Positions 42,962 to 63,821 of a stretch of 63,821 nt of DNA are shown piece after piece; the first letter of the stretch is position 1; each line of letters starts with the position of its first letter. The position numbers were made by a program, and so were the translations under genes. The stretch covers positions 1 through 63,821 of the forward strand of contig JAMPXY010000001.1 of assembly GCA_023700945.1 (NCBI GenBank). Direction: 5' to 3'. Origin of the DNA: Alphaproteobacteria bacterium (GTDB taxonomy: Bacteria; Pseudomonadota; Alphaproteobacteria; Micavibrionales; Micavibrionaceae). Under the pieces are notes generated by a model. The model saw only the letters and a list, made by a program, of their open reading frames with translations. It had not been told where the DNA came from and searched no databases.

Positions 42962-43048
42962 TGGTGCCCAAGAGAAGACTCGAACTTCCATGACATTGCT
43001 GTCACACGGACCTGAACCGTGCGCGTCTACCAATTCCGCCACTTGGGC
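42962..43048 (-). tRNA. tRNA-Leu (anticodon CAG)
   Basis: The reverse complement GCCCAAGTGGCGGAATTGGTAGACGCGCACGGTTCAGGTCCGTGTGACAGCAATGTCATGGAAGTTCGAGTCTTCTCTTGGGCACCA folds as a cloverleaf. It has a 7 bp acceptor stem, the anticodon arm CACGG/TTCAGGT/CCGTG, a long variable arm, a GTTCGAGTC T-loop and an encoded CCA. Confidence 0.92.
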
Positions 43049-54155: not shown

Positions 54156-54965
54156 TCAGCCGCTTGATTGCAATTCCTGAACAACAATGCCGTACTGGGT
54201 GGCGATCTCGCCGAGGCCGCCATTAACGAACTGGCCTGTGGCTTCAAAAGTCCAGCGCGGGCCTTCACGGATCAGCGAGGCGACATAGATACCATTGCCC
54301 CCGATCAGTTCGCTATCCTCAAAGGCAAAACGGCAGACCTCTTCACCGCTGTCCTCGTTGACGATGCGCAGGAAGACATCCCGTACCAGACTGAAGTTTA
54401 GTCCTTTCATCTCTTCGTCATAGATGGAAAAAATGAATACGACTTTCTGGATATCAAACGGCAGGGCGTTGAGATCGAGAATGACTGTTTCGTCATCGCC
54501 TTCGCCGGCTCCGTTGCGGCTGTCGCCGCTATGCTTGCAGCCGCCATCAAAACCGCTCTGGTTGTTGTAAAACACAAAGTCGCTGTCTTCGCGGGTTTTC
54601 TCATTACGATCAAGAAAAAATACGGAGAGATCAATGTCGACCTTGTCCTCTTCCATGGCGCGCTGTTCCCAGCCCCCACCGATGCGCAGCACCTTTAATG
54701 TGGGATCCTTGCGCAGGATGTCGACATATTCGCCGCGCTTGATAAAGTTGATGCCGCTGTCAAAAACATGTGAGGCCAGTTCCTCGGGCATTTCCTGCCT
54801 GAATTCCTCAGCCGGATTGATCAGGTCAGACTCAGGGAACGGGGGGCTGCCCGGACTCTGGCTTCTGCGTGCCGCTGTATCCGCACCGATATCAATCGGT
54901 TTGATATCGTCGTCTTCGGCCTGCATTTTTTTGAAGATGTCGTCTTCGTTCTCAAAGTCACTCAT
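54156..54965 (-). CDS. TerD-domain stress protein with an acidic N-terminal extension
   Basis: 269 aa. 'L.IGGGWE......VDIDLSVFFL........DSDFVFYNN', 'HSGD...G.GEGDDE....DL..LP..I.KVVF' and 'A.L.R.G..W.F.A' form the TerD fold signature. Confidence 0.8.
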   Translation of the reverse strand: MSDFENEDDIFKKMQAEDDDIKPIDIGADTAARRSQSPGSPPFPESDLINPAEEFRQEMPEELASHVFDSGINFIKRGEYVDILRKDPTLKVLRIGGGWEQRAMEEDKVDIDLSVFFLDRNEKTREDSDFVFYNNQSGFDGGCKHSGDSRNGAGEGDDETVILDLNALPFDIQKVVFIFSIYDEEMKGLNFSLVRDVFLRIVNEDSGEEVCRFAFEDSELIGGNGIYVASLIREGPRWTFEATGQFVNGGLGEIATQYGIVVQELQSSG

Positions 54966-54983
54966 CAGGTAAAACCCTTTATA

Positions 54984-55718
54984 TTATTTCTCGCCATCAT
55001 CCCATCGCAGGCCATAGCCATAGGCGCGGTCCATTTCGGCATGGCCGGGGAAATATTCACCAAAATTAGTGAATTTGATGTTGTTGTTGATGTTTTCAAT
55101 CGCGGCGATGGCGCAGACGGGCAAATCATTCTTCTTGATCGCCGGGGTGATGGTCAAAGGCTGTTCGCCCGGCATCCGGATATGAATTTTGGGGCGAACC
55201 TTATCCCAGTTCACATCACCGCTATAAATATAAACATAGATCATCAAACGGCGAATTTCCGACCATTTTTTGCCGTTGATATGCATGCTTTCATCGTCGC
55301 CCTCTTTGTCGCCGGTGCGCTCGTCACCGGAAATGTTCATGTAAGGGGCGTCATCATACTCGCCAAACATTTCGCCAAAGGCCTGCAGGCAGCCCCGGCT
55401 GCCATCCTGCATTTCATAAAGGCAGCCGAGATCAATATCGACCCCCTGCTTGGTGACTTTTTTGACCAGCTTGCCAATCAGGCCAGCCTCCTTGACCTGA
55501 ATATTATCCCACGACGCCGCCACCACGATATCTTCGAACCCGTTATCCGGGGCATTGATCACGATGGTTTCGCCAAAGCCGTTCAGGAGGCTCTCAACAT
55601 GCTCTTCGTTATCGGCCCGGTAGCCGGCAGCACCCTTGGCTTTGCCGTGGCCGGAAAATTCAGACCGGTCGCGGGTCGCTTCGGAGAGGGCGTCAGTTGA
55701 GATTGTATCGCGGGGCAT
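54984..55718 (-). CDS. TerD/TerA-like tellurium-resistance-family protein
   Basis: 244 aa from the ATG at 55718, which has an 'AAGGAGA' RBS. 'GVDIDLGCLYEMQDGS.G.LQAFG..FG.....PY...SGDERTG...GDDE' matches the TerA/TerD-like subgroup. Confidence 0.75.
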   Translation of the reverse strand: MPRDTISTDALSEATRDRSEFSGHGKAKGAAGYRADNEEHVESLLNGFGETIVINAPDNGFEDIVVAASWDNIQVKEAGLIGKLVKKVTKQGVDIDLGCLYEMQDGSRGCLQAFGEMFGEYDDAPYMNISGDERTGDKEGDDESMHINGKKWSEIRRLMIYVYIYSGDVNWDKVRPKIHIRMPGEQPLTITPAIKKNDLPVCAIAAIENINNNIKFTNFGEYFPGHAEMDRAYGYGLRWDDGEK

Positions 55719-55784
55719 CAGGGGTCTCCTTCGGAAAATGAGGCAGCAGCAGGATAGCACCATCCGCCCGACCGTAAAACCTTG

Positions 55785-56371: not shown

Positions 56372-57532
56372 ATGAAATCAAATCTGGGGCTGCTTATAAA
56401 ATCATTGATGCTGGCAGGGTTTCTGCTGTGCCCTGTTCCTGTGTTTGCGGAAGATTCGGCAAATCAAAAAAACGTGGTGACGGAGCACTCAAGCGGCCTG
56501 TGGCCCGATGAAATCACACTCGACGGGCAAGTGTTCAAGAAAGATCAGCTGAATCAGGCTTTTCTGGATGCGGTGTTTATTGCTGACGTTCTTAATAAAC
56601 GCGGGGAACAGCTTGTTCTTGGAATTCCTGTAGAGATGCCAAGAGACTGGATTTTGCACCCGGAAACTTTAAAAGTCGGCTACCCTTGGCTTTATCCTCA
56701 TGTCTATCCGCAGGACGGGCTGCCTCGCACATTATCGGCCAATAAGTGGGTCAAGCCTGTTCGTATTTCATTTGGAATGCCGAATGGCTTGAAACCTTAT
56801 GTTCCAAATAAGATGCTGGGAACGGATACCCTTTTTTACTCGAATGTGAACGTTGAGGAAATTGAGAGGTTTTTTGATACCCCTGTGGCTCATGATATTG
56901 TCAATGATATATCTGAAATTTCTTCCGTATTAAATGATTTAACCGGATTGAATGTAAGTTTTAAGAATTCTGACGCTGAGAGTGCTGACGTTAAGGGCTT
57001 TGGGATTCAAATCAATTTTATAACAATGGATAAAAATCTAGAAAAGTATCGATTCAAAGCGAGGGATTTAAGGGGATTTGTTAGTGCTTATGTGGGGCGC
57101 TTCATGGTGTTTCGTGGGGATACTGAGGACTATATAAAGACAGGGTTTCCGTTCACTCCTGTTTCTGCAAAGCAAGTTGATGGCTACATTCTTTCAAACT
57201 CCAAGAACGAAATTCAGGCCGCGGTTTGTTACATCTGGATTGGCCACGAACCGGAGATGATCAAAGCGCTTGTGCGCGAATGTCTGATCCGTTCCTTGGG
57301 TCTTCCCGGTGCTATGCGCATGAACTTTGCCCAAAGGCCGGTACCGGTCAGTTATCTCACGCTCTGGAATGATCCTGAAAAATGGAGCGAGTCTTATCGA
57401 TCTCAGGTGAAAACACCTTCCGAATTAAGTGAGTTCGATCAGTACATGATCCGTACGCTTTATAATCCGGCGATCAAGCCCGGCATGGATTATGTGGCAG
57501 CACAGAGAATTCTTCTGGGTACTGAATATTGA
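56372..57532 (+). CDS. secreted protein, possibly DUF2927-like
   Basis: 386 aa with the signal peptide 'LAGFLLCPVPVFAEDS'. The C-terminal 'VRECLIRSLGLPG' and 'D.YMIRTLYNPAIKPGM' resemble the DUF2927 ending as I remember it. The central part of the gene has lower GC. Confidence 0.45.
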   Translation: MKSNLGLLIKSLMLAGFLLCPVPVFAEDSANQKNVVTEHSSGLWPDEITLDGQVFKKDQLNQAFLDAVFIADVLNKRGEQLVLGIPVEMPRDWILHPETLKVGYPWLYPHVYPQDGLPRTLSANKWVKPVRISFGMPNGLKPYVPNKMLGTDTLFYSNVNVEEIERFFDTPVAHDIVNDISEISSVLNDLTGLNVSFKNSDAESADVKGFGIQINFITMDKNLEKYRFKARDLRGFVSAYVGRFMVFRGDTEDYIKTGFPFTPVSAKQVDGYILSNSKNEIQAAVCYIWIGHEPEMIKALVRECLIRSLGLPGAMRMNFAQRPVPVSYLTLWNDPEKWSESYRSQVKTPSELSEFDQYMIRTLYNPAIKPGMDYVAAQRILLGTEY

Positions 57533-57697: not shown

Positions 57698-59377
57698 ATG
57701 GCCTCTTACGAATACGTCTATGTGATGAATAATCTGACCAAAACCTATCCCGGCGGGAAGAAGGTTCTGGAGGACATTACTTTAAGCTTTTTCCCCGGTG
57801 CCAAAATCGGGGTGCTGGGCCCGAACGGTTCGGGTAAATCAACCCTGCTCAAGATTATGGCGGGGCTGGATAATGAATATACCGGTGAGGCCTGGGCGGC
57901 CAAGACCGCTCGTGTGGGTTATCTGGCGCAGGAGCCTTACCTCGACCCGCAAAAGACCGTGCAGGAAAACGTGATGGAAGGTCTGGCCCCGGTCAAGGCG
58001 ATGGTCGATCGCTTCAATGCCATCGGCATGGAAATGGCCGAGCCCGACGCCGACTACGACAAGCTGATGACAGAAATGGGTGATCTGCAGGAAAAAATCG
58101 ATGCGGTGAATGGCTGGGAGCTGGAGCGCACGGTGGAGATCGCGATGGATGCCCTGCGCTGCCCGCCGCCCGAGGCCAATGTTACGACTTTATCAGGGGG
58201 TGAGCGCCGCCGGGTGGCCTTGTGCCGCCTGCTGCTTGAGAAACCCGATATGCTGCTGCTTGATGAACCGACCAACCACCTTGATGCCGAAAGCGTGTCG
58301 TGGTTGCAGCGATTCCTGGGTGATTATACCGGGACGGTGGTGATGGTCACCCATGATCGCTACTTCCTGGATAATGTCACAGGCTGGATTCTCGAGCTCG
58401 ATCGCGGTCGTGGTATTCCTTATGAAGGTAATTACTCGGCTTATCTTGAATCCAAACGTAAACGTCTGGCGCAGGAATCCAAGGAAGAGGATGAGTTGCA
58501 AAAGACACTGGCAAAAGAGCTGGAGTGGATCAGGGGTACGCCCGAAGGTCGGCGCAAAAAATCGAAAGCCCGCGTGGCGGCTTATGACGAGTTGCTGGCG
58601 CAATCAGAAAGACAGGATACGCGTGGCACCCAGATCGTGATCCCGACGCCGCCGCGCCTCGGTGAAGTCGTGATCGATGCCAACCATATCCGCAAGGCGT
58701 TTGGTGACCGTCTGCTGATTGAAGATTTGTCCTTCAAATTGCCGCCGGGCGGTATTGTCGGCGTCATCGGCCCGAACGGGGCCGGTAAAACCACCTTGTT
58801 TCGCATGATCACCGGGCAGGAAACGCCCGATGCCGGAACCTTCAAGGTCTCCGATAATGTGAAGCTCGGCTATGTCGATCAAAGCCGCGATTCACTCGAC
58901 CCGAACAAGAACGTCTGGGAAGAGGTTTCGGATGGTTTGGATATTCTGGATCTGGGCCGGATCAAGATGCCTTCGCGCGCTTATGTGGGTTCGTTCAATT
59001 TCCGTGGCCCCGACCAGCAGAAAAAAGTCGGCCAGCTTTCGGGCGGGGAACGTAACCGCGTTCATCTCGCCAAAATGCTGAAAAGCGGCAGCAATGTCCT
59101 GCTGCTCGACGAACCGACCAACGATCTGGATACCGAAACCCTCTCGGCGCTTGAGGAAGCGTTGGAGAGTTTCCCCGGCTGCGCGGTTATCATCTCGCAC
59201 GACCGTGCCTTCCTTGACCGTCTGGCTACCCACATCCTCGCGTTTGAAGGGGATTCGCAGGTGGTGTGGTTCGAGGGCAATTATGAGGATTACGAGAGGG
59301 ATCGTCAGCGACGTCTTGGCAAGGATGCCGATCAGCCGCACCGGATCAAGTACAAACCGTTAACCCGGGCGGCATGA
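57698..59377 (+). CDS. ettA: energy-dependent translational throttle ABC-F protein
   Basis: 559 aa with two ABC cassettes ('GPNGSGKST', 'GPNGAGKTT', two 'LSGGER' signatures). The EttA-type N-terminus is '[14 protein letters not shown]'. Confidence 0.95.
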
Positions 59378-59454
59378 TCAGGCCTTGGGCAGGGCCGGGA
59401 AATCACACCCTTCCTTTAGAGCTTTATTATTGAAAATCATGGATAATTTTGCAG

Positions 59455-59484
59455 GGCCGGTTCTGGCAAACGAACCGGTTTTCT
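59455..59484 (+). terminator. rho-independent terminator of ettA
   Basis: CCGGTTC (59457-59463) pairs with GAACCGG (59472-59478), followed by TTTTCT. Confidence 0.7.
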
Positions 59485-59580
59485 GCTATTATGTTTAGTA
59501 AGGATAATTAAATAAAATTTTATGTATCTGGCGGTATGATACTATAAGCGCAGTAGTATATGGGGGAATTTTCATAAAAA

Positions 59581-62535
59581 TTGCAGTTACTTCAGCAACT
59601 TAACTCAAAAAAGGTTCTGACCTACACGATGCTGCCCGGGGTGATTCCGCGGGTGAAGGCGTTTGCTGCCGATGGCTTTACTTGGCTGGCGGCGCTGATG
59701 GCGGCCATATACGCGGGCGTTGGATTATTACCCTATAACCACCCTTATCTGAATGCCGAGAACAAGGGCCGCTTCGGCATGCGCCATGTTATTCTCGAGG
59801 CCGGGCGTCGTTTGAAATTTGATCGCAACCATATCGATCAGGTCATCATTTATTTCACGTTATTGCTGGGGTTTGTGCTGTTGCTGGCACAAATTGCGTT
59901 GCTGGCTGTGGGGCTGGTGTTGAATCCGGTCTTTGCCGGACCGCCGTTTCTGGGGTTATTTGCAACCCCGCTCCCGGATGAAGATATCGCCTATATGCTG
60001 CTTGACCGCGTTTTTGCGGTGCCGGGACTCTACGGCTCGCAGTGGGACCCCGCGCTGATCGGCATGACACCGTTCAGTGACGGCCTTCATTCTCTGTTCC
60101 AGTTCTACAGTCAGGCGATGTTGATTGTTGCGATCTTTATCGTCCTTTATTATGTGGTCATTCTGGTTGCCGAGACTGCGCAAACCGGGACGCCTTTTGG
60201 CAAGCGGTTTGATACGATCTGGGCACCGATCCGTCTGGTTGTCGCGATTGGTTTACTGGTACCGATTAACTGGGGTTACAACAGTGCGCAATATCTGGTT
60301 TTGTTTGCCGCTAAATATGGATCGAGCTTTGCTACCAATGCCTGGAACATTTATAACGATACCGTGGCCGCGAGCGCCATGGGGTGTGCCCTTGGAGCGA
60401 ATGATAATGCTGTCGGCTGGTGCGATAGCTCGCTGATTTCGATCCCGCGTCTGCCTGATCCCCAGCACCTGATTCAGTTTATGTCGTTGGCCCGTTCCTG
60501 CAAACTGGCCTATGAGACTACCTACCGTGCCGCTTCCGGCCCTGCTTTTGAAATCAAGCCGTATCTGGTCAAGAAGACCGCGACTGGCCAGGTCGCGACC
60601 GAAATTACCTATGCTGGCTGGGTTGCTGGTCTGGCAACAGCGCTGGATGACTGGATTGATGCTGTCGATTTTTATAACTATGCCGATATTTTGATCGTCT
60701 TTGGTCAGGAAAATGCCGCACACACCCAGTTTACCGGCAATGTGAAGCCTTTTTGTGGTGAAATTGTTCTCGCGACCTCAAGCGTCAAGACAGATTTGCT
60801 CGCGGCAGCGCAGGATATGGCGGTTGTAACGCAATCTTTGTATCTGCTCTCGGTCAAACATATGTGGTTTGGCGATAATGATTTTGAGGAATTTGCCCGC
60901 AAGGCAAATTCCAAGTTCATAGATAAATATATCAGGGAATATGGCGGGCCATGTGTGGCCTATAATCAGGTTTCGTTTGGCGATGTGGGCGCCTGTGAGG
61001 CCACAGCGGCGACCGCTGATAATCCAGCCACAACGGCGGGTTTAAGTACCGAACTGCCCGGCTCTGAATGGGGCCATATGCAGATTAACCACTATACCGG
61101 CTTGCTGGATCTGGCGATTACAGCGGTGCGTGCCGGGGCGATTGTGGCCACTGACTTTACCGTCACTACCGACATGGAAAAACGCGGTTGGGCGGGAGCA
61201 GGGATCTGGTACAACAAGATTGCCGAATGGAATGGCGCATTCTTCTCGGCGGTGATCAATATTCCCACACCCAAATCCATGCCGCTCGTCATGAAAGAGG
61301 TCGAAGCGCAGAAGAGCGGTACCGACCAGAATATCAATGCCGTTGATCGTTATGATCCTAACCTTGCCAGTAAGGATCGTGAGAATATGGTGAATTTGAC
61401 ACCTGACGATAAGCCGATTGCCGAGATGCTCAGCCATATCTTCAAGTACTGGCGCGGTAAAAACAACACTGAAACAGTCGAAATGAAGTCAAGCGGCAAT
61501 GCTATTTTTGACGTTCTGTCGGCTATTTTTGGCCTGAATGGTCTTTTCACCATTCGCGAAACCAGTGAAATTCACCCGATGGCACAGCTTTCAGGGATCG
61601 GGCGCAGTATTGTTGAATCGGCAATCCGTAACTTGATGGTGGCCATGGGATTTTCGTTCTTAGGCGGTATGACGGAAATCATTGATCGCCAACTGGGCGG
61701 AGCCATGACAGCCATTAGCAGTATGTTTGTGACATTTACGACGATGGGGCTGACGGTCGGCTTTATTCTTTATTATGTGTTGCCGTTCTTGCCCTTCATG
61801 TATTTCTTTTTTGCGGTAGGGTCGTGGCTCAAGTCAATTTTTGAAGCGATGGTCGGTGTGCCGCTGTGGGCTCTGGCACACTTGCGTATTGATGGACATG
61901 GCTTGCATGGCGATACCGCCTTAAATGGTTATTTCCTGATTTTTGAGATTTTTATCAGACCGATTCTGACAGTATTCGGCTTGCTGGCCAGTATGGCGAT
62001 TTTTGCGGCCATGGTACGGACGCTGAATGGCATCTTCCCGATGGTTACAGCCAACCTCACGGGCTTTGATCCAAACAGTCCGAAAGTGGCCGGGAAGATT
62101 TTGGGGATTGAATTCAAGCGCAGTATTATTGATGAGTTTTTCTTCACCCTGATTTACACCATCATCGTTTACATGATTGCGCTGTCTTCTTTCAAAATGA
62201 TTGATATGGTGCCGAATCACATCATGCGCTGGATGGGCTCTGGGGCGCAGAGCTTTAGTGAAAGTGCTGAGGGCAGTATGAACCAGTTCATCAGTTATGC
62301 TGCTATTGGTGGATCTCAGCTGACAAAACAGGCCACAGGCGCCATGGTCAGTGGTGCGCGGCTGGGTGGTAATGTTATGGGGATGCCGTTTGGGTTATTG
62401 AGTCGAGCTGGCGGCGGTGGAGCGGCCGGGGGCAGTGCTCGCGGTGCTCCTTCGCGTGGCGGTGGCAATGAAGGCGGGGGCGGTGGTGGCGGCCAGGGAC
62501 GTTCTGGAGATGCGGGTGGTACGCCCACAGAGTGA
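59581..62535 (+). CDS. large polytopic membrane protein, tentatively DotA/TraY-like (paralog 1)
   Basis: 984 aa. It has an N-terminal TM cluster, a ~400 aa non-hydrophobic central domain, a C-terminal TM cluster and a Gly-rich tail. The block 'AETAQTGTPFGKRFDTIWAPIRLVVAIGLLVP...GY...Q' resembles the conserved DotA/TraY block as I recall it. The CDS is near-certain; the family call is tentative. The TTG start is from the track. Confidence 0.5.
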   Translation: MQLLQQLNSKKVLTYTMLPGVIPRVKAFAADGFTWLAALMAAIYAGVGLLPYNHPYLNAENKGRFGMRHVILEAGRRLKFDRNHIDQVIIYFTLLLGFVLLLAQIALLAVGLVLNPVFAGPPFLGLFATPLPDEDIAYMLLDRVFAVPGLYGSQWDPALIGMTPFSDGLHSLFQFYSQAMLIVAIFIVLYYVVILVAETAQTGTPFGKRFDTIWAPIRLVVAIGLLVPINWGYNSAQYLVLFAAKYGSSFATNAWNIYNDTVAASAMGCALGANDNAVGWCDSSLISIPRLPDPQHLIQFMSLARSCKLAYETTYRAASGPAFEIKPYLVKKTATGQVATEITYAGWVAGLATALDDWIDAVDFYNYADILIVFGQENAAHTQFTGNVKPFCGEIVLATSSVKTDLLAAAQDMAVVTQSLYLLSVKHMWFGDNDFEEFARKANSKFIDKYIREYGGPCVAYNQVSFGDVGACEATAATADNPATTAGLSTELPGSEWGHMQINHYTGLLDLAITAVRAGAIVATDFTVTTDMEKRGWAGAGIWYNKIAEWNGAFFSAVINIPTPKSMPLVMKEVEAQKSGTDQNINAVDRYDPNLASKDRENMVNLTPDDKPIAEMLSHIFKYWRGKNNTETVEMKSSGNAIFDVLSAIFGLNGLFTIRETSEIHPMAQLSGIGRSIVESAIRNLMVAMGFSFLGGMTEIIDRQLGGAMTAISSMFVTFTTMGLTVGFILYYVLPFLPFMYFFFAVGSWLKSIFEAMVGVPLWALAHLRIDGHGLHGDTALNGYFLIFEIFIRPILTVFGLLASMAIFAAMVRTLNGIFPMVTANLTGFDPNSPKVAGKILGIEFKRSIIDEFFFTLIYTIIVYMIALSSFKMIDMVPNHIMRWMGSGAQSFSESAEGSMNQFISYAAIGGSQLTKQATGAMVSGARLGGNVMGMPFGLLSRAGGGGAAGGSARGAPSRGGGNEGGGGGGGQGRSGDAGGTPTE

Positions 62536-62567
62536 TCTTTTACCCGACAGAGTAATTTGAGATAGGT

Positions 62568-63821
62568 ATGGCAAGAATAACCGCAGGGAACATTCTGAAA
62601 GTCGCGATTCTGCCGGGGATTGTACCCCGGACCAGAGAGTTGATGGCTGGGGGGTTCGGTTATATTGCTTTTTATATCGCGCAAATTTTTTGGGCAGTAA
62701 AACTACTCCCCACAGGTCACCCTTATCTCAGTGTGGCTAATTTTGGCCGCTTTGGTATCAGTCATGTGACTTCCGAAGCATGGCGGTCAGTTGTCAAAGG
62801 ACAGCGGCATATAGATCAAATCATTATTTTCTGTGTGATTTTGGTTGGGATTGCCATTCTTTTCATACAGTTCTGTTTTCTGGGTGCGGCCCTTTTCACA
62901 CAGGCGGCGCACGCTTTGCCGCCGCTTCCGGCGGGGGGGTTTCTGGGGACGGCCAACCCTGATAATGATGTAGCTTTTGTCTTGCTGGATTATGTTTTTG
63001 GCATTCCTTCTGATGGGGTTAACCATTTTTTTGGTTCTTGCGTGGCTCAGGAAATCCAGTGTTTTACAGACAGTCCCTGGCCCATCCCTGGCCCATCTTT
63101 TCCCTTTGCTTACCATGACGGTTTGCATGCCATGTTGCAGGTTTACAGCATCGGTCTGCTGGTGATTGCCATGGTGATTTTTTCCTATTTTGCTGTAGCC
63201 ATTTTACTGGAAACAGCAGAATCAGGCACACCTTTTGGTCGCCGCTTTAATGCCTTGTGGGCGCCTGTCCGCATGGTGATGGCCATAGCCCTGCTGATGC
63301 CAATTGCCAACGGCCTGAATGCGGCCCAGTATGTAGTTTTGTATGCGGCAAAATGGGGCTCTGGTTTTGCCACGAATGGTTGGAATTTGTTTGTAGCTGA
63401 TGCTACGGCCCCGGCGAACTTTTCGATATTGGGTGATCCTAAAGATCTGGTTGCAGCGCCGAGCACGCCACCCGTGAATACTTTTGTCCAGTTTGCCACA
63501 GTGTTGGCCGCTTGCAAGATCGCTGAAGCCTCGGGGACAAATCCGCGTGACGTCAACGCCTATGTTGTGTTCCCCCAGACTATGGGCCCGGCAGGCCGGG
63601 CAGATCTGGTTGGACTTAGTTACGCTGATGCACTTGATCGCAGCAATAATGGCGACATTTATTATGTTTTTGGTGTTTATGAAACAGATTCATCAGGTCA
63701 ACCGCTGCACGCAAACTATCCGGGGCAAGTGAAGCCGGTGTGTGGTGAAGTGGCGTTGCAGGTCACTGATGTTGATGATGCCTTTTCTCCCGGCTCTTAC
63801 TACATGCTAGAGCAATACCAC
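62568..63821 (+). CDS. large polytopic membrane protein, paralog 2 (5' part; runs off the window)
   Basis: This ORF is not in the ORF track because no stop falls within the window. I translated it by hand from the ATG at 62568: 418 codons stay open to the window end. It aligns with paralog 1 at 'LPGIVPRTRELMAGGF', 'LLPTGHPYLSVANFGRFGISHV', 'LETAESGTPFGRRFNALWAPVRMVMAIALLMP' and 'GQVKPVCGEVAL'. Confidence 0.5.
   Translation, partial: MARITAGNILKVAILPGIVPRTRELMAGGFGYIAFYIAQIFWAVKLLPTGHPYLSVANFGRFGISHVTSEAWRSVVKGQRHIDQIIIFCVILVGIAILFIQFCFLGAALFTQAAHALPPLPAGGFLGTANPDNDVAFVLLDYVFGIPSDGVNHFFGSCVAQEIQCFTDSPWPIPGPSFPFAYHDGLHAMLQVYSIGLLVIAMVIFSYFAVAILLETAESGTPFGRRFNALWAPVRMVMAIALLMPIANGLNAAQYVVLYAAKWGSGFATNGWNLFVADATAPANFSILGDPKDLVAAPSTPPVNTFVQFATVLAACKIAEASGTNPRDVNAYVVFPQTMGPAGRADLVGLSYADALDRSNNGDIYYVFGVYETDSSGQPLHANYPGQVKPVCGEVALQVTDVDDAFSPGSYYMLEQYH
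63075..63096 (+). repeat. perfect 11 bp tandem duplication (CCCTGGCCCAT x2) inside paralog 2
   Basis: Read directly from the sequence. It lies in a loop that is about 18 aa longer than in paralog 1. The reading frame is conserved on both sides. Confidence 0.9.

What the first reader, a model, noticed from the sequence alone, without database searches (positions are those of the whole stretch)
59378..63821. Tandem giant DotA/TraY-like membrane protein paralogs with no other visible secretion genes
Seen directly:
- The 984 aa ORF (59581-62535) is followed after 32 nt by a second ORF (from 62568, open to the window end, missing from the ORF track).
- The two are clearly paralogous.
- Block 1: 'LPGVIPRVKAFAADGF...LLPYNHPYLNAENKGRFGMRHV' vs 'LPGIVPRTRELMAGGF...LLPTGHPYLSVANFGRFGISHV'.
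- Block 2: 'AETAQTGTPFGKRFDTIWAPIRLVVAIGLLVPINWGYNSAQYLVLFAAKYGSSFATNAWN' vs 'LETAESGTPFGRRFNALWAPVRMVMAIALLMPIANGLNAAQYVVLYAAKWGSGFATNGWN'.
- Block 3: 'GNVKPFCGEIVLA' vs 'GQVKPVCGEVALQ'.
- Paralog 1 has about 5 N-terminal TM helices, a ~400 aa soluble domain, 6 or more C-terminal TM helices and a Gly-rich cytoplasmic tail.

Inference:
- This topology (large periplasmic domain between TM clusters, cytoplasmic C-tail) and the block that follows a TM helix resemble DotA/TraY of type IVB (Dot/Icm, IncI) systems as I remember them.

Why it is odd:
- Nothing upstream is secretion-related. The neighbour is ettA with its own terminator, then a 200 bp AT-rich spacer.
- The gene is duplicated in tandem.
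- The host looks like a metabolically complete alphaproteobacterium.

The locus may be the edge of an uncharacterised DotA-based or DotA-derived membrane system.
Basis: partly seen in the sequence, partly recalled or inferred. Interest (0 to 1): 0.75.

Follow-up and report, generated by a model that had tools for sequence, protein, structure and literature searches.

The report
Tandem DotA channel genes in Micavibrio
The two large membrane-protein genes are true relatives of DotA, the inner-membrane channel of Legionella-type (type IVB) secretion machines, and they begin a conserved row of three or four such genes carried in the core chromosome of Micavibrio-like predatory bacteria, far from any other secretion gene, which makes them a candidate part of the unknown prey-attack machinery.

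Summary
ORF1 (59581-62535, 984 aa) and ORF2 (62568 to the window end, cut) are paralogs: 35% identity, E 5e-77.

ORF1 is a DotA/TraY-family protein.
- It scores 246 bits against TIGR04346 (cut-off 100) and covers the whole profile.
- Its AlphaFold model (pLDDT 84.5) matches one solved structure only: DotA of the Legionella DotA-IcmX protochannel (Foldseek E 1.7e-13).

The window is a Micavibrio-type chromosome, syntenic with M. aeruginosavorus ARL-13.

In 116 related loci the pair belongs to a same-strand, operon-like array.
- Of the 61 arrays bounded on both sides, 43 have three copies, 16 have four and 2 have one.
- The array is usually flanked by ettA on one side and mlaC-mlaA-lptGF on the other.
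- No other type IVB gene lies within 10 kb.

All copies keep about 60 invariant residues.

The ARL-13 genes I equate with the array, by synteny only, are transcribed, more in the attack phase. That genome also lists an unremarked 'icmO'.

Best reading: a domesticated, multiplied DotA channel module of a dispersed or reduced type-IVB-like translocon. It parallels the VirB6 paralog arrays of Rickettsiales.

I could not test whether the rest of a T4BSS exists elsewhere in these genomes. This is a new variant of a known kind.

The parts
57698..59377 (+). ettA (energy-dependent translational throttle ABC-F protein). It is the conserved upstream flank of the array, not part of the system.
   Evidence: 559 aa ABC-F ORF. 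An EttA ortholog lies upstream of the array in 63 of 116 related loci. It matches GMV_200 of ARL-13, which is also 1680 bp.
59378..59580 (+). AT-rich spacer with a terminator-like hairpin for ettA (59454-59486) and two sigma-70-like promoter matches (59402-59430, 59463-59492).
   Evidence: Sequence; RNA fold; promoter scan. These are consensus matches only, and no function is shown.
59581..62535 (+). DotA/TraY-family paralog 1 (984 aa from TTG 59581; 968 aa if read from ATG 59629). It is the first gene of the array.
   Evidence: TIGR04346 246 bits against a cut-off of 100. PDB sequence hit to DotA, E 2.4e-12. AlphaFold model pLDDT 84.5. Foldseek hit to 9ngy DotA, E 1.7e-13, TM 0.41/0.46. Position-1 orthologs in relatives are 35-70% identical.
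62536..62567 (+). 32-nt spacer between paralogs, of operon-like size.
   Evidence: The median spacer between consecutive copies in 116 loci is 29 nt, and all copies lie on one strand.
62568..63821 (+). DotA/TraY-family paralog 2: the N-terminal 418 codons, cut by the end of the contig.
   Evidence: TIGR04346 99.2 bits on the fragment. 35% identity to paralog 1, E 5e-77. The full-length second copy in L003 is 919 aa and scores 245.7 bits.

Best explanation
**What it is**
- The two ORFs are the first two genes of a vertically inherited, co-oriented array of three or four DotA/TraY-family genes.
- The array is a hallmark of Micavibrio-type (Micavibrionales) epibiotic predatory alphaproteobacteria.

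**How each protein is built**
- Each copy is a polytopic inner-membrane protein predicted to fold like Legionella DotA.
- It has N-terminal membrane helices, a large periplasmic 'extended' domain that probably carries a conserved disulfide (the invariant pair C307 and C392), and a bundle of long hydrophobic helices.
- In Legionella DotA that helix bundle forms a pentameric chamber with a hydrophobic lumen.

**Origin (inferred)**
- The family most likely descends from the DotA/TraY of a conjugative type IVB element.
- It was fixed in the core chromosome and multiplied into at least two ancient paralog classes.
- The paralogs differ mainly in the periplasmic domain.

**How it most likely works (inferred)**
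- The paralogs are alternative or co-assembling channel subunits of a dispersed or reduced type-IVB-like translocation apparatus.
- At least one further part, the coupling ATPase IcmO/DotL, appears to be encoded elsewhere.
- The apparatus would be used when the predator contacts prey.

**Shown versus inferred**
- Shown: family membership, fold, array structure, conservation, and core-genome context.
- Shown for three ARL-13 genes that I equate with the array by synteny only: transcription in both phases.
- Inferred: pentamer formation, partnership with IcmO, and a role in predation.
For: **Family and fold**
- All four copies in L003 score 222-246 bits on TIGR04346.
- The only fold match is DotA in the DotA-IcmX protochannel.
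- DotA is a VirB6-like pentameric inner-membrane chamber (bioRxiv 10.1101/2025.06.23.660953).

**Array structure**
- Of 61 arrays bounded on both sides, 43 have three copies, 16 have four and 2 have one.
- All copies lie on one strand, with a median spacer of 29 nt.

**Selection on every copy**
- 96 positions are at least 90% identical across 128 full-length copies. About 60 columns are invariant.
- Identity is highest in the membrane helices (0.6-0.8) and lowest in the periplasmic domain (0.34-0.47).

**Age of the paralogs**
- Copies group by position in the array rather than by genome in a neighbour-joining tree.

**Core-genome context**
- ettA lies upstream in 63 loci. mlaC and mlaA lie downstream in 53 and 49 loci. 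lptF/G, pepA, efp and earP are also nearby.
- GC content of the array region (0.51-0.53) lies within the window's range (0.49-0.57), and there is no tRNA or integrase nearby.

**Mobile-element relatives**
- One of the two deepest-branching relatives in the tree (L046, single copy) sits among relaxase, ArdA and AbiEii genes.
- Plasmid DotA/TraY proteins are 24-31% identical.

**Expression in ARL-13**
- GMV_196, 197 and 198 have lengths of 2694, 2763 and 2742 bp. They lie between Ttg2/VacJ and M50/ABC genes.
- Their expression index (attack / attachment phase) is 11.9/3.9, 4.8/1.7 and 3.6/2.8, while many housekeeping genes in the same table read 0-1 in the attack phase.

**Other type IVB parts**
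- ARL-13 lists GMV_383 as 'icmO'.
- pT4SSi was detected in seven marine Micavibrionales MAGs (PMC9418006).

**Precedent**
- Rickettsiales carry four to five divergent, enlarged VirB6 paralogs in a duplicated T4SS that lacks VirB5 (PMC8035066).
Against: **No type IVB partner found nearby**
- None lies within 10 kb of any of the 116 arrays. 27 seed proteins gave only one marginal hit.

**ARL-13 record**
- Its gene table, as held, has no TrbI, VirB, TraG or 'conjugal' annotation.
- An outer-membrane core and a VirB4-type ATPase may therefore be truly absent.

**Weak links in my own chain**
- I equated GMV_196-198 with the array by gene length and synteny, not by sequence.
- I could not fetch a Micavibrio IcmO or inspect its neighbours.

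**Departures from canonical DotA**
- The score on the strict DotA equivalog model NF033886 is 185 bits against a cut-off of 500.
- The family has its own conserved N-terminal extension of about 150 aa (LPGxxPR, LLPxxHPYL). It lies outside the part of ORF1 matched by TIGR04346 (which starts at residue 150) and outside nearly all plasmid DotA/TraY matches.
- This fits a function that has moved away from canonical DotA.

**Alternative hint from context**
- The conserved neighbours are lipid and LPS transport genes (mla, lpt).
Confidence: 0.55

Rival explanations
1. Stand-alone DotA-derived system. The three or four paralogs form inner-membrane and periplasmic chambers that work without a type IVB outer-membrane core, a VirB4-type ATPase or IcmX. 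They would act as a new kind of conduit or envelope device, for example for moving hydrophobic cargo or lipids, possibly linked with the neighbouring Mla and Lpt lipid-transport genes.
For: - No type IVB gene lies next to any of the 116 arrays.
- The ARL-13 authors found no T4SS, and the gene table as held shows no TrbI, VirB or TraG annotation.
- The family has its own conserved N-terminal extension and fails the strict DotA equivalog cut-off.
- mlaC-mlaA and lptF/G are conserved neighbours.
- The DotA chamber has a hydrophobic lumen.
- T4SS-driven lipid mixing has been reported (bioRxiv 10.64898/2026.01.14.699567).
Against: - ARL-13 does list an icmO.
- Some Micavibrionales MAGs score as pT4SSi with MacSyFinder.
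- The mla and lpt genes lie on the opposite strand, so they are not co-transcribed with the array. The adjacency may be no more than frozen synteny.
- The lipid-mixing report assigns that activity to DotG, not DotA.
Confidence: 0.28
2. Ordinary component of a complete, canonical Dot/Icm-type T4BSS. The remaining roughly 20 genes sit in one or two other chromosomal regions, as in Legionella. The extra copies would be simple redundancy.
For: - Legionella splits its dot/icm genes over two regions (established knowledge).
- MacSyFinder detected pT4SSi in seven marine Micavibrionales MAGs.
- icmO is annotated in ARL-13.
Against: - In Legionella and in IncI plasmids, dotA/traY is single-copy and lies inside the gene cluster, for example traW-traX-traY in L050.
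- Here there are 3-4 anciently diverged copies, each under purifying selection. That argues against simple redundancy.
- The ARL-13 annotation shows no VirB10/TrbI-type or other T4SS genes.
- The protein does not reach the DotA equivalog cut-off.
Confidence: 0.12
3. Decaying remnant of an integrated conjugative element, with no present function.
For: - DotA/TraY is typical of conjugative MPF_I elements: 3895 plasmid records match.
- The single-copy relative L046 lies in a mobile element.
- The ARL-13 paper reports nine ICE-like islands.
Against: - All copies are intact reading frames of 850-1090 aa, with about 60 invariant residues across 119-128 proteins.
- The same chromosomal position and flanks recur across lineages whose orthologs are only 35-70% identical.
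- GC content lies within the window's range, and there is no integrase or tRNA nearby.
- The genes equated with the array are transcribed in ARL-13.
Confidence: 0.03

Closest known systems
Legionella pneumophila DotA (Dot/Icm type IVB secretion system; PDB 9ngy/9nh0)
   Same: - Same protein family (TIGR04346), and the only fold match.
- Same layout: membrane helices, a large periplasmic extended domain with cysteines, then a bundle of long hydrophobic helices.
- The best-conserved block here (PFxYFFFA..W.K..FEA..PLWALAH, residues 735-767) aligns with DotA residues 729-837.
   Different: - Only 16% identity in the structural alignment, and below the DotA equivalog cut-off (185 against 500 bits).
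- Three or four tandem copies instead of one.
- Not next to icmV/W/X or dotB/C/D.
- An extra conserved N-terminal region of about 150 aa.
- The host is a predator of bacteria, not a parasite of eukaryotic cells.
TraY of IncI1-type conjugative plasmids (MPF_I)
   Same: Same family. Plasmid homologs match the C-terminal half at 24-31% identity.
   Different: - TraY is single-copy, shorter (about 720 aa in L050) and embedded in the tra operon next to traW, traX and excA.
- The array here is chromosomal, vertically inherited and lacks any tra neighbour.
rvhB6 (VirB6) paralog arrays of the Rickettsiales vir-homolog type IVA system
   Same: - Several strongly diverged, enlarged paralogs of the inner-membrane channel subunit (five in Rickettsia, four in Ehrlichia) in a host-dependent alphaproteobacterium (PMC8035066).
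- The VirB5-type partner is absent there.
- DotA is described as the VirB6 counterpart.
   Different: - It is a different T4SS class (IVA against IVB), and I found no detectable sequence relation.
- In Rickettsiales the rest of the T4SS is known to be present. Here that is untested.
VirB6/TrwI of the R388 and Agrobacterium type IVA systems
   Same: Functional analogy only: a pentameric inner-membrane platform under a VirB5 pentamer, as compared.
   Different: No sequence or Foldseek match to VirB6-type chains was obtained. It is much smaller and lacks the extended periplasmic domain.

Membership tests
DotA/TraY family (NCBIfam TIGR04346) | Whole-protein HMM score above the curated cut-off (100 bits), with end-to-end coverage of the profile | tested here: met
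   ORF1 scores 246.4 bits, with residues 150-886 on profile positions 9-656 of 656. The ORF2 fragment scores 99.2 bits on the first 160 profile positions. The full-length copies 1-4 in L003 score 222-246 bits.
DotA/TraY family (NCBIfam TIGR04346) | DotA fold: membrane helices, an extended periplasmic domain and a bundle of hydrophobic helices | tested here: met
   AlphaFold model with pLDDT 84.5 and pTM 0.77. Foldseek against the PDB gives 9ngy DotA at E 1.7e-13, probability 1.00, TM 0.41/0.46 over 948 columns. The next hit has E 0.34.
DotA/TraY family (NCBIfam TIGR04346) | Encoded as a single gene inside a type IVB (dot/icm or IncI tra) gene cluster | tested here: not met
   Bounded arrays have 3-4 tandem copies in 59 of 61 cases. 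No type IVB seed protein matches within 10 kb in 116 loci. Compare traW-traX-traY in L050.
DotA/TraY family (NCBIfam TIGR04346) | Forms a pentameric ring or chamber | not testable with these tools
   Only monomer prediction was available. The pentamer is known for Legionella DotA.
Type IVB secretion system protein DotA, strict equivalog (NCBIfam NF033886) | Score at or above the 500-bit equivalog cut-off | tested here: not met
   185.4 bits for ORF1, and 147-180 bits for the L003 copies.
Complete type IVB secretion system (Dot/Icm, MPF_I) | VirB4-type ATPase DotO/IcmB (TraU) in the same genome | not testable with these tools
   Absent from the window and from the +-10 kb of 116 loci.
Complete type IVB secretion system (Dot/Icm, MPF_I) | Coupling protein DotL/IcmO in the same genome | tested here: inconclusive
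   The ARL-13 gene table lists GMV_383 as 'icmO', 2583 bp, but the sequence could not be retrieved. The DotL family has 949 clusters at 50% identity, and none could be tied to Micavibrio.
Complete type IVB secretion system (Dot/Icm, MPF_I) | Outer-membrane core (DotC, DotD, DotF, DotG, DotH) and the DotA partner IcmX | tested here: inconclusive
   None lies near the arrays. No TrbI, VirB or conjugation annotation appears in the ARL-13 table as held, and the authors report no T4SS. However, MacSyFinder called pT4SSi in seven marine Micavibrionales MAGs.
Rickettsiales rvhB6 (VirB6) paralog arrays | Sequence or fold membership in the VirB6/TrbL family | tested here: not met
   No Pfam hit at all and no VirB6-type chain among the Foldseek matches. 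The resemblance is organisational only.

The most novel reading that the evidence does not exclude
Micavibrio-type predators have stripped a type IVB machine down to its inner-membrane channel. They multiplied that channel into three or four specialised DotA paralogs. These work without the classical outer-membrane core and VirB4 ATPase, perhaps with IcmO alone, or with pili or porins. The result would be a new kind of predator-to-prey conduit for injecting effectors or for withdrawing hydrophobic or lipid cargo.
Probability: 0.22. Interest if true: 0.88.

Novelty: new variant of a known kind. Interest (0 to 1): 0.62.

Why it matters
**The open question**
- How Micavibrio attaches to prey, kills it and 'leeches' its contents from outside is not understood.

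**What this adds**
- Micavibrio-type genomes carry a conserved, transcribed array of DotA-type channel proteins. ARL-13 carries what appear to be its counterparts, plus an unremarked icmO.
- This gives concrete candidate genes for a contact-dependent translocon in an epibiotic predator.

**Interest for type IV secretion research**
- It would be a type IVB counterpart of the puzzling VirB6 multiplication in Rickettsiales.
- It is also a natural experiment on what DotA can do away from its usual gene cluster.

**State of the literature and annotation**
- The literature library held no paper that mentions both Micavibrio and DotA.
- Automatic annotation already labels some of these proteins 'DotA/TraY family protein'. 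The family assignment itself is therefore not new.

Tried and rejected
**1. Looking for other type IVB genes next to the array**
- I clustered all ORFs of 46 genome loci.
- I ran Pfam and NCBIfam on conserved and odd neighbours.
- I ran phmmer with 27 seed proteins against all ORFs of 116 loci.
- Nothing was found. The seeds were IncI TraM to TraX and TrbA-C, an environmental IcmO/IcmL/IcmK set, three DotM, IcmS and Legionella DotL.

**2. Fetching the Micavibrio IcmO**
- I rebuilt Legionella DotL residues 102-606 from a PDB alignment.
- The word-indexed search returned only Legionella.
- The exhaustive representative search returned 150 unnamed clusters out of 949.
- Thirty candidates were checked for names and contig sizes.
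- Five genomic contexts were read. Four were mobile-element-like (SLT, DotM_C, IcmS, Peptidase_M15). One was a chromosomal Dot/Icm cluster of a 30% GC organism.
- None could be tied to Micavibrio, so I abandoned this route.

**3. Literature**
- No paper links Micavibrio with DotA.
- Searches pairing Micavibrio or Micavibrionales with 'type IV secretion', 'secretion', 'Icm' and 'T4SS' gave only the ARL-13 paper and Needham et al. 2022 as relevant.
- Supplementary Data 11 of the latter is not held.
- Pasternak et al. 2014 is not held.

**4. ICE remnant or foreign island**
- Rejected on GC content, the absence of a tRNA or integrase, synteny and conservation.

**5. Alphaproteobacterial plasmid context**
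- The Bosea plasmid was not informative: all neighbouring genes were hypothetical.

**6. Structure prediction**
I repeated it with permitted database hits.
Full report
**1. The observation**

ORF1 runs from 59581 (TTG) to 62535 and encodes 984 aa. ORF2 begins 32 nt later, at 62568, and stays open to the last base of the window. BLASTP of the two gives 35% identity over 450 columns with E 5e-77, so they are true paralogs.

The exact 968-aa product read from ATG 59629 is on record in a public collection. The longest contig carrying it is 63,821 bases, which is the window's own length, so the window is most likely a whole contig that breaks inside ORF2. The family-conserved motif VLxYxxLPG begins upstream of that ATG, so I prefer the TTG start.

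- four or five N-terminal hydrophobic helices;
- a soluble mixed alpha/beta domain of about 400 aa (roughly residues 255-660);
- five or six long C-terminal hydrophobic helices;
- a disordered Gly-rich tail.

**2. What the proteins are**

- NCBIfam TIGR04346 (DotA/TraY) matches ORF1 at 246 bits against a curated cut-off of 100. The match covers profile positions 9-656 of 656. The truncated ORF2 reaches 99 bits on the part it has.
- Pfam has no model that hits.
- Among all PDB sequences the only match is Legionella DotA.
- An AlphaFold2 model built on 119 homologs is confident, with mean pLDDT 84.5 and pTM 0.77.
- Foldseek against the PDB returns a single significant match: DotA in the in-situ DotA-IcmX protochannel 9ngy. 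E is 1.7e-13, probability 1.00 and TM 0.41/0.46 over 948 columns. The next hit has E 0.34.
- The proteins do not reach the strict 'DotA equivalog' cut-off (185 against 500 bits).
- They carry a conserved N-terminal region of about 150 residues (P19, P23-R24, P51, H54) that lies before the TIGR04346 match, which starts at residue 150.

**3. Whose genome**

A scan of one genome per bacterial species found 46 loci encoding relatives. Most of these records are labelled Micavibrio or unclassified Alphaproteobacteria; a few carry the labels Pseudobdellovibrionaceae, Bdellovibrionales, Rhodospirillales, Pseudomonadota or Hyphomicrobiales. The best match is 68% identical, on a complete 2.39-Mb chromosome.

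The gene order of the window, read by eye, matches genes GMV_130 to GMV_200 of M. aeruginosavorus ARL-13. That order is ahcY, trpAB, rpsA, aroA, rpoN, lptABC, putA, xseA, ettA. The host is thus a Micavibrio-type obligate epibiotic predator. None of the window's other ORFs looks secretion-related.

**4. The full structure of the locus**

In the closest complete genome (L003) ettA is followed by four co-oriented DotA/TraY genes of 944, 919, 912 and 858 aa. All score 222-246 bits. Convergent mlaC and mlaA follow.

A metagenome scan added 70 loci. Over all 116 loci:
- 61 arrays are bounded on both sides. Of these, 43 have three copies, 16 have four, 2 have one and none has two.
- All copies lie on one strand, with a median spacer of 29 nt.
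- ettA is present in 63 loci, mlaC in 53 and mlaA in 49.

Further out lie lptF/lptG, pepA, efp/earP, TerD-domain genes and xseA. The window therefore shows the first two genes of an array expected to hold three or four.

**5. Conservation and history**

Across 128 full-length copies, 96 positions are at least 90% identical. Alignments of 30 and 119 sequences have 43 and 62 invariant columns. The conserved features include:
- the block ETAxxGTPFGxRF (198-210);
- an invariant cysteine pair (C307, C392), as expected for a periplasmic domain;
- the block PFxYFFFA..W.K..FEA..PLWALAH (735-767).

Identity is highest in the membrane helices and lowest in the periplasmic domain. In Legionella that is the part of DotA that contacts IcmX.

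In a neighbour-joining tree the copies group by position in the array rather than by genome. This indicates at least two ancient paralog classes plus later lineage-specific duplications.

The two deepest-branching sequences are single-copy genes. One (L046) lies among relaxase, ArdA and AbiEii genes, which is a mobile element. The other (L047) lies among housekeeping genes. Plasmid DotA/TraY proteins are 24-31% identical.

GC content of the array region (0.51-0.53) lies within the window's range (0.49-0.57), and there is no nearby tRNA or integrase.

The simplest history is capture of a conjugative-element DotA/TraY, fixation in the core chromosome, then multiplication.

**6. Is there a secretion system around it?**

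Not locally. No conserved neighbour is secretion-related. phmmer with 27 type IVB seed proteins against every ORF of the 116 loci gave one marginal hit only.

Genome-wide the question stays open.
- The ARL-13 paper states that there is no evidence of type III or IV secretion.
- Its expression table, as held, has no TrbI, VirB, TraG or 'conjugal' entries.
- The same table lists GMV_383 as 'icmO' (2583 bp), next to gyrB and argS. Its two neighbours are of DotN-like and DotM-like size.
- Needham et al. 2022 report MacSyFinder pT4SSi calls in seven marine Micavibrionales MAGs.
- I tried hard to retrieve a Micavibrio IcmO and failed. The DotL family is enormous: 949 clusters at 50% identity below E 1e-30.

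**7. Expression**

In ARL-13 three 'putative membrane protein' genes of 2694, 2763 and 2742 bp (GMV_196-198) lie between Ttg2/VacJ (MlaC/MlaA) and M50/ABC (EttA) genes. That is the position of the array. Their expression indices (attack / attachment phase) are 11.9/3.9, 4.8/1.7 and 3.6/2.8. Many housekeeping genes in the same table read 0-1 in the attack phase. I equated these genes with the array by length and synteny, not by sequence.

**8. Mechanism**

Legionella DotA is the VirB6-like subunit. Five copies form a hollow chamber with a hydrophobic lumen. The chamber is anchored in the inner membrane, is capped by an IcmX pentamer and is caged by DotG. It opens on host contact.

By homology and fold, each Micavibrio paralog should form the same kind of chamber. 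This is an inference. Three or four anciently diverged copies, each under purifying selection and differing most in the periplasmic domain, point to specialised or co-assembling channel subunits rather than to redundancy.

The closest precedent is the Rickettsiales rvh system. It has four or five enlarged VirB6 paralogs and no VirB5.

I consider a dispersed or reduced type-IVB-like translocon used at prey contact the most likely function (about 0.55). A stand-alone DotA-only device, possibly lipid-related given the mla and lpt neighbours, is the main rival (about 0.28). A fully canonical T4BSS encoded elsewhere (about 0.12) and a dead ICE remnant (about 0.03) are less likely.

**9. Verdict**

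- The 'edge of a larger gene cluster' idea is not borne out.
- The family label is already applied by automatic annotation.
- The organisation appears not to be described: a core-genome array of three or four DotA paralogs, conserved across Micavibrio-type predators and detached from any T4BSS cluster.
- It bears directly on the unsolved mechanism of epibiotic predation.
- I rate it a new variant of a known kind, with interest 0.62.

Noticed in passing
M. aeruginosavorus ARL-13 gene table (PMC3189940, supplementary file 4), GMV_382-385; no window coordinates: GMV_383 is annotated 'icmO' (2583 bp) beside gyrB and argS. It is followed by hypothetical genes of 582 and 1215 bp, sizes close to DotN and DotM. 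The paper's text nevertheless says no type IV secretion system is present. All of these genes are transcribed in both phases.
   Followed up: partly
window 59581 vs 59629: Public gene calls start ORF1 at ATG 59629 (968 aa). The motif VLxYxxLPG, conserved in all paralogs, starts upstream of that ATG. TTG 59581 is therefore the more likely start.
   Followed up: partly
window 54156-55763 (- strand) and 56372-57532 (+): The L003 counterparts of the window's two ORFs at 54156-55763 carry TerD domains, and both lie upstream of ettA in 17 and 20 of the 46 genome loci. A DUF2927-domain ORF (56372-57532) sits where ARL-13 has an M50 peptidase (GMV_199).
   Followed up: partly
L046 1-17655: A single-copy DotA/TraY gene sits in a mobile element with two relaxase-like genes, ArdA, AbiEii and HipA-like genes. 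The element also carries a thymidine-hypermodification set (aGPT-Pplase3/ADDT plus a ThyA-like gene).
   Followed up: partly
L056 / L057 10001-22619: A chromosomal Dot/Icm-like cluster (IcmO, two IcmL, IcmK and a 1996-aa ORF) next to topA, ruvB and rpoD in a 29.8% GC organism. Its IcmO is indexed in 80 blocks of the public collection. The organism was not identified.
   Followed up: no
protein representative search with Legionella DotL (P0121): DotL/IcmO-type coupling proteins form 949 clusters at 50% identity with E<1e-30. The top 150 are all at least 40% identical to Legionella DotL. Many carry N-terminal extensions of 300-500 aa. The family is far wider than Legionellales.
   Followed up: no
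L051-L055: A recurrent mobile-element module: an SLT lytic transglycosylase, DotM_C, one or two small ORFs and IcmO, often followed by Peptidase_M15 and a DsbC/thioredoxin-like gene.
   Followed up: no
window 42962-43048 (- strand): The only tRNA gene in the window (tRNA-Leu, anticodon CAG). It is 16 kb from the array and not associated with it.
   Followed up: yes
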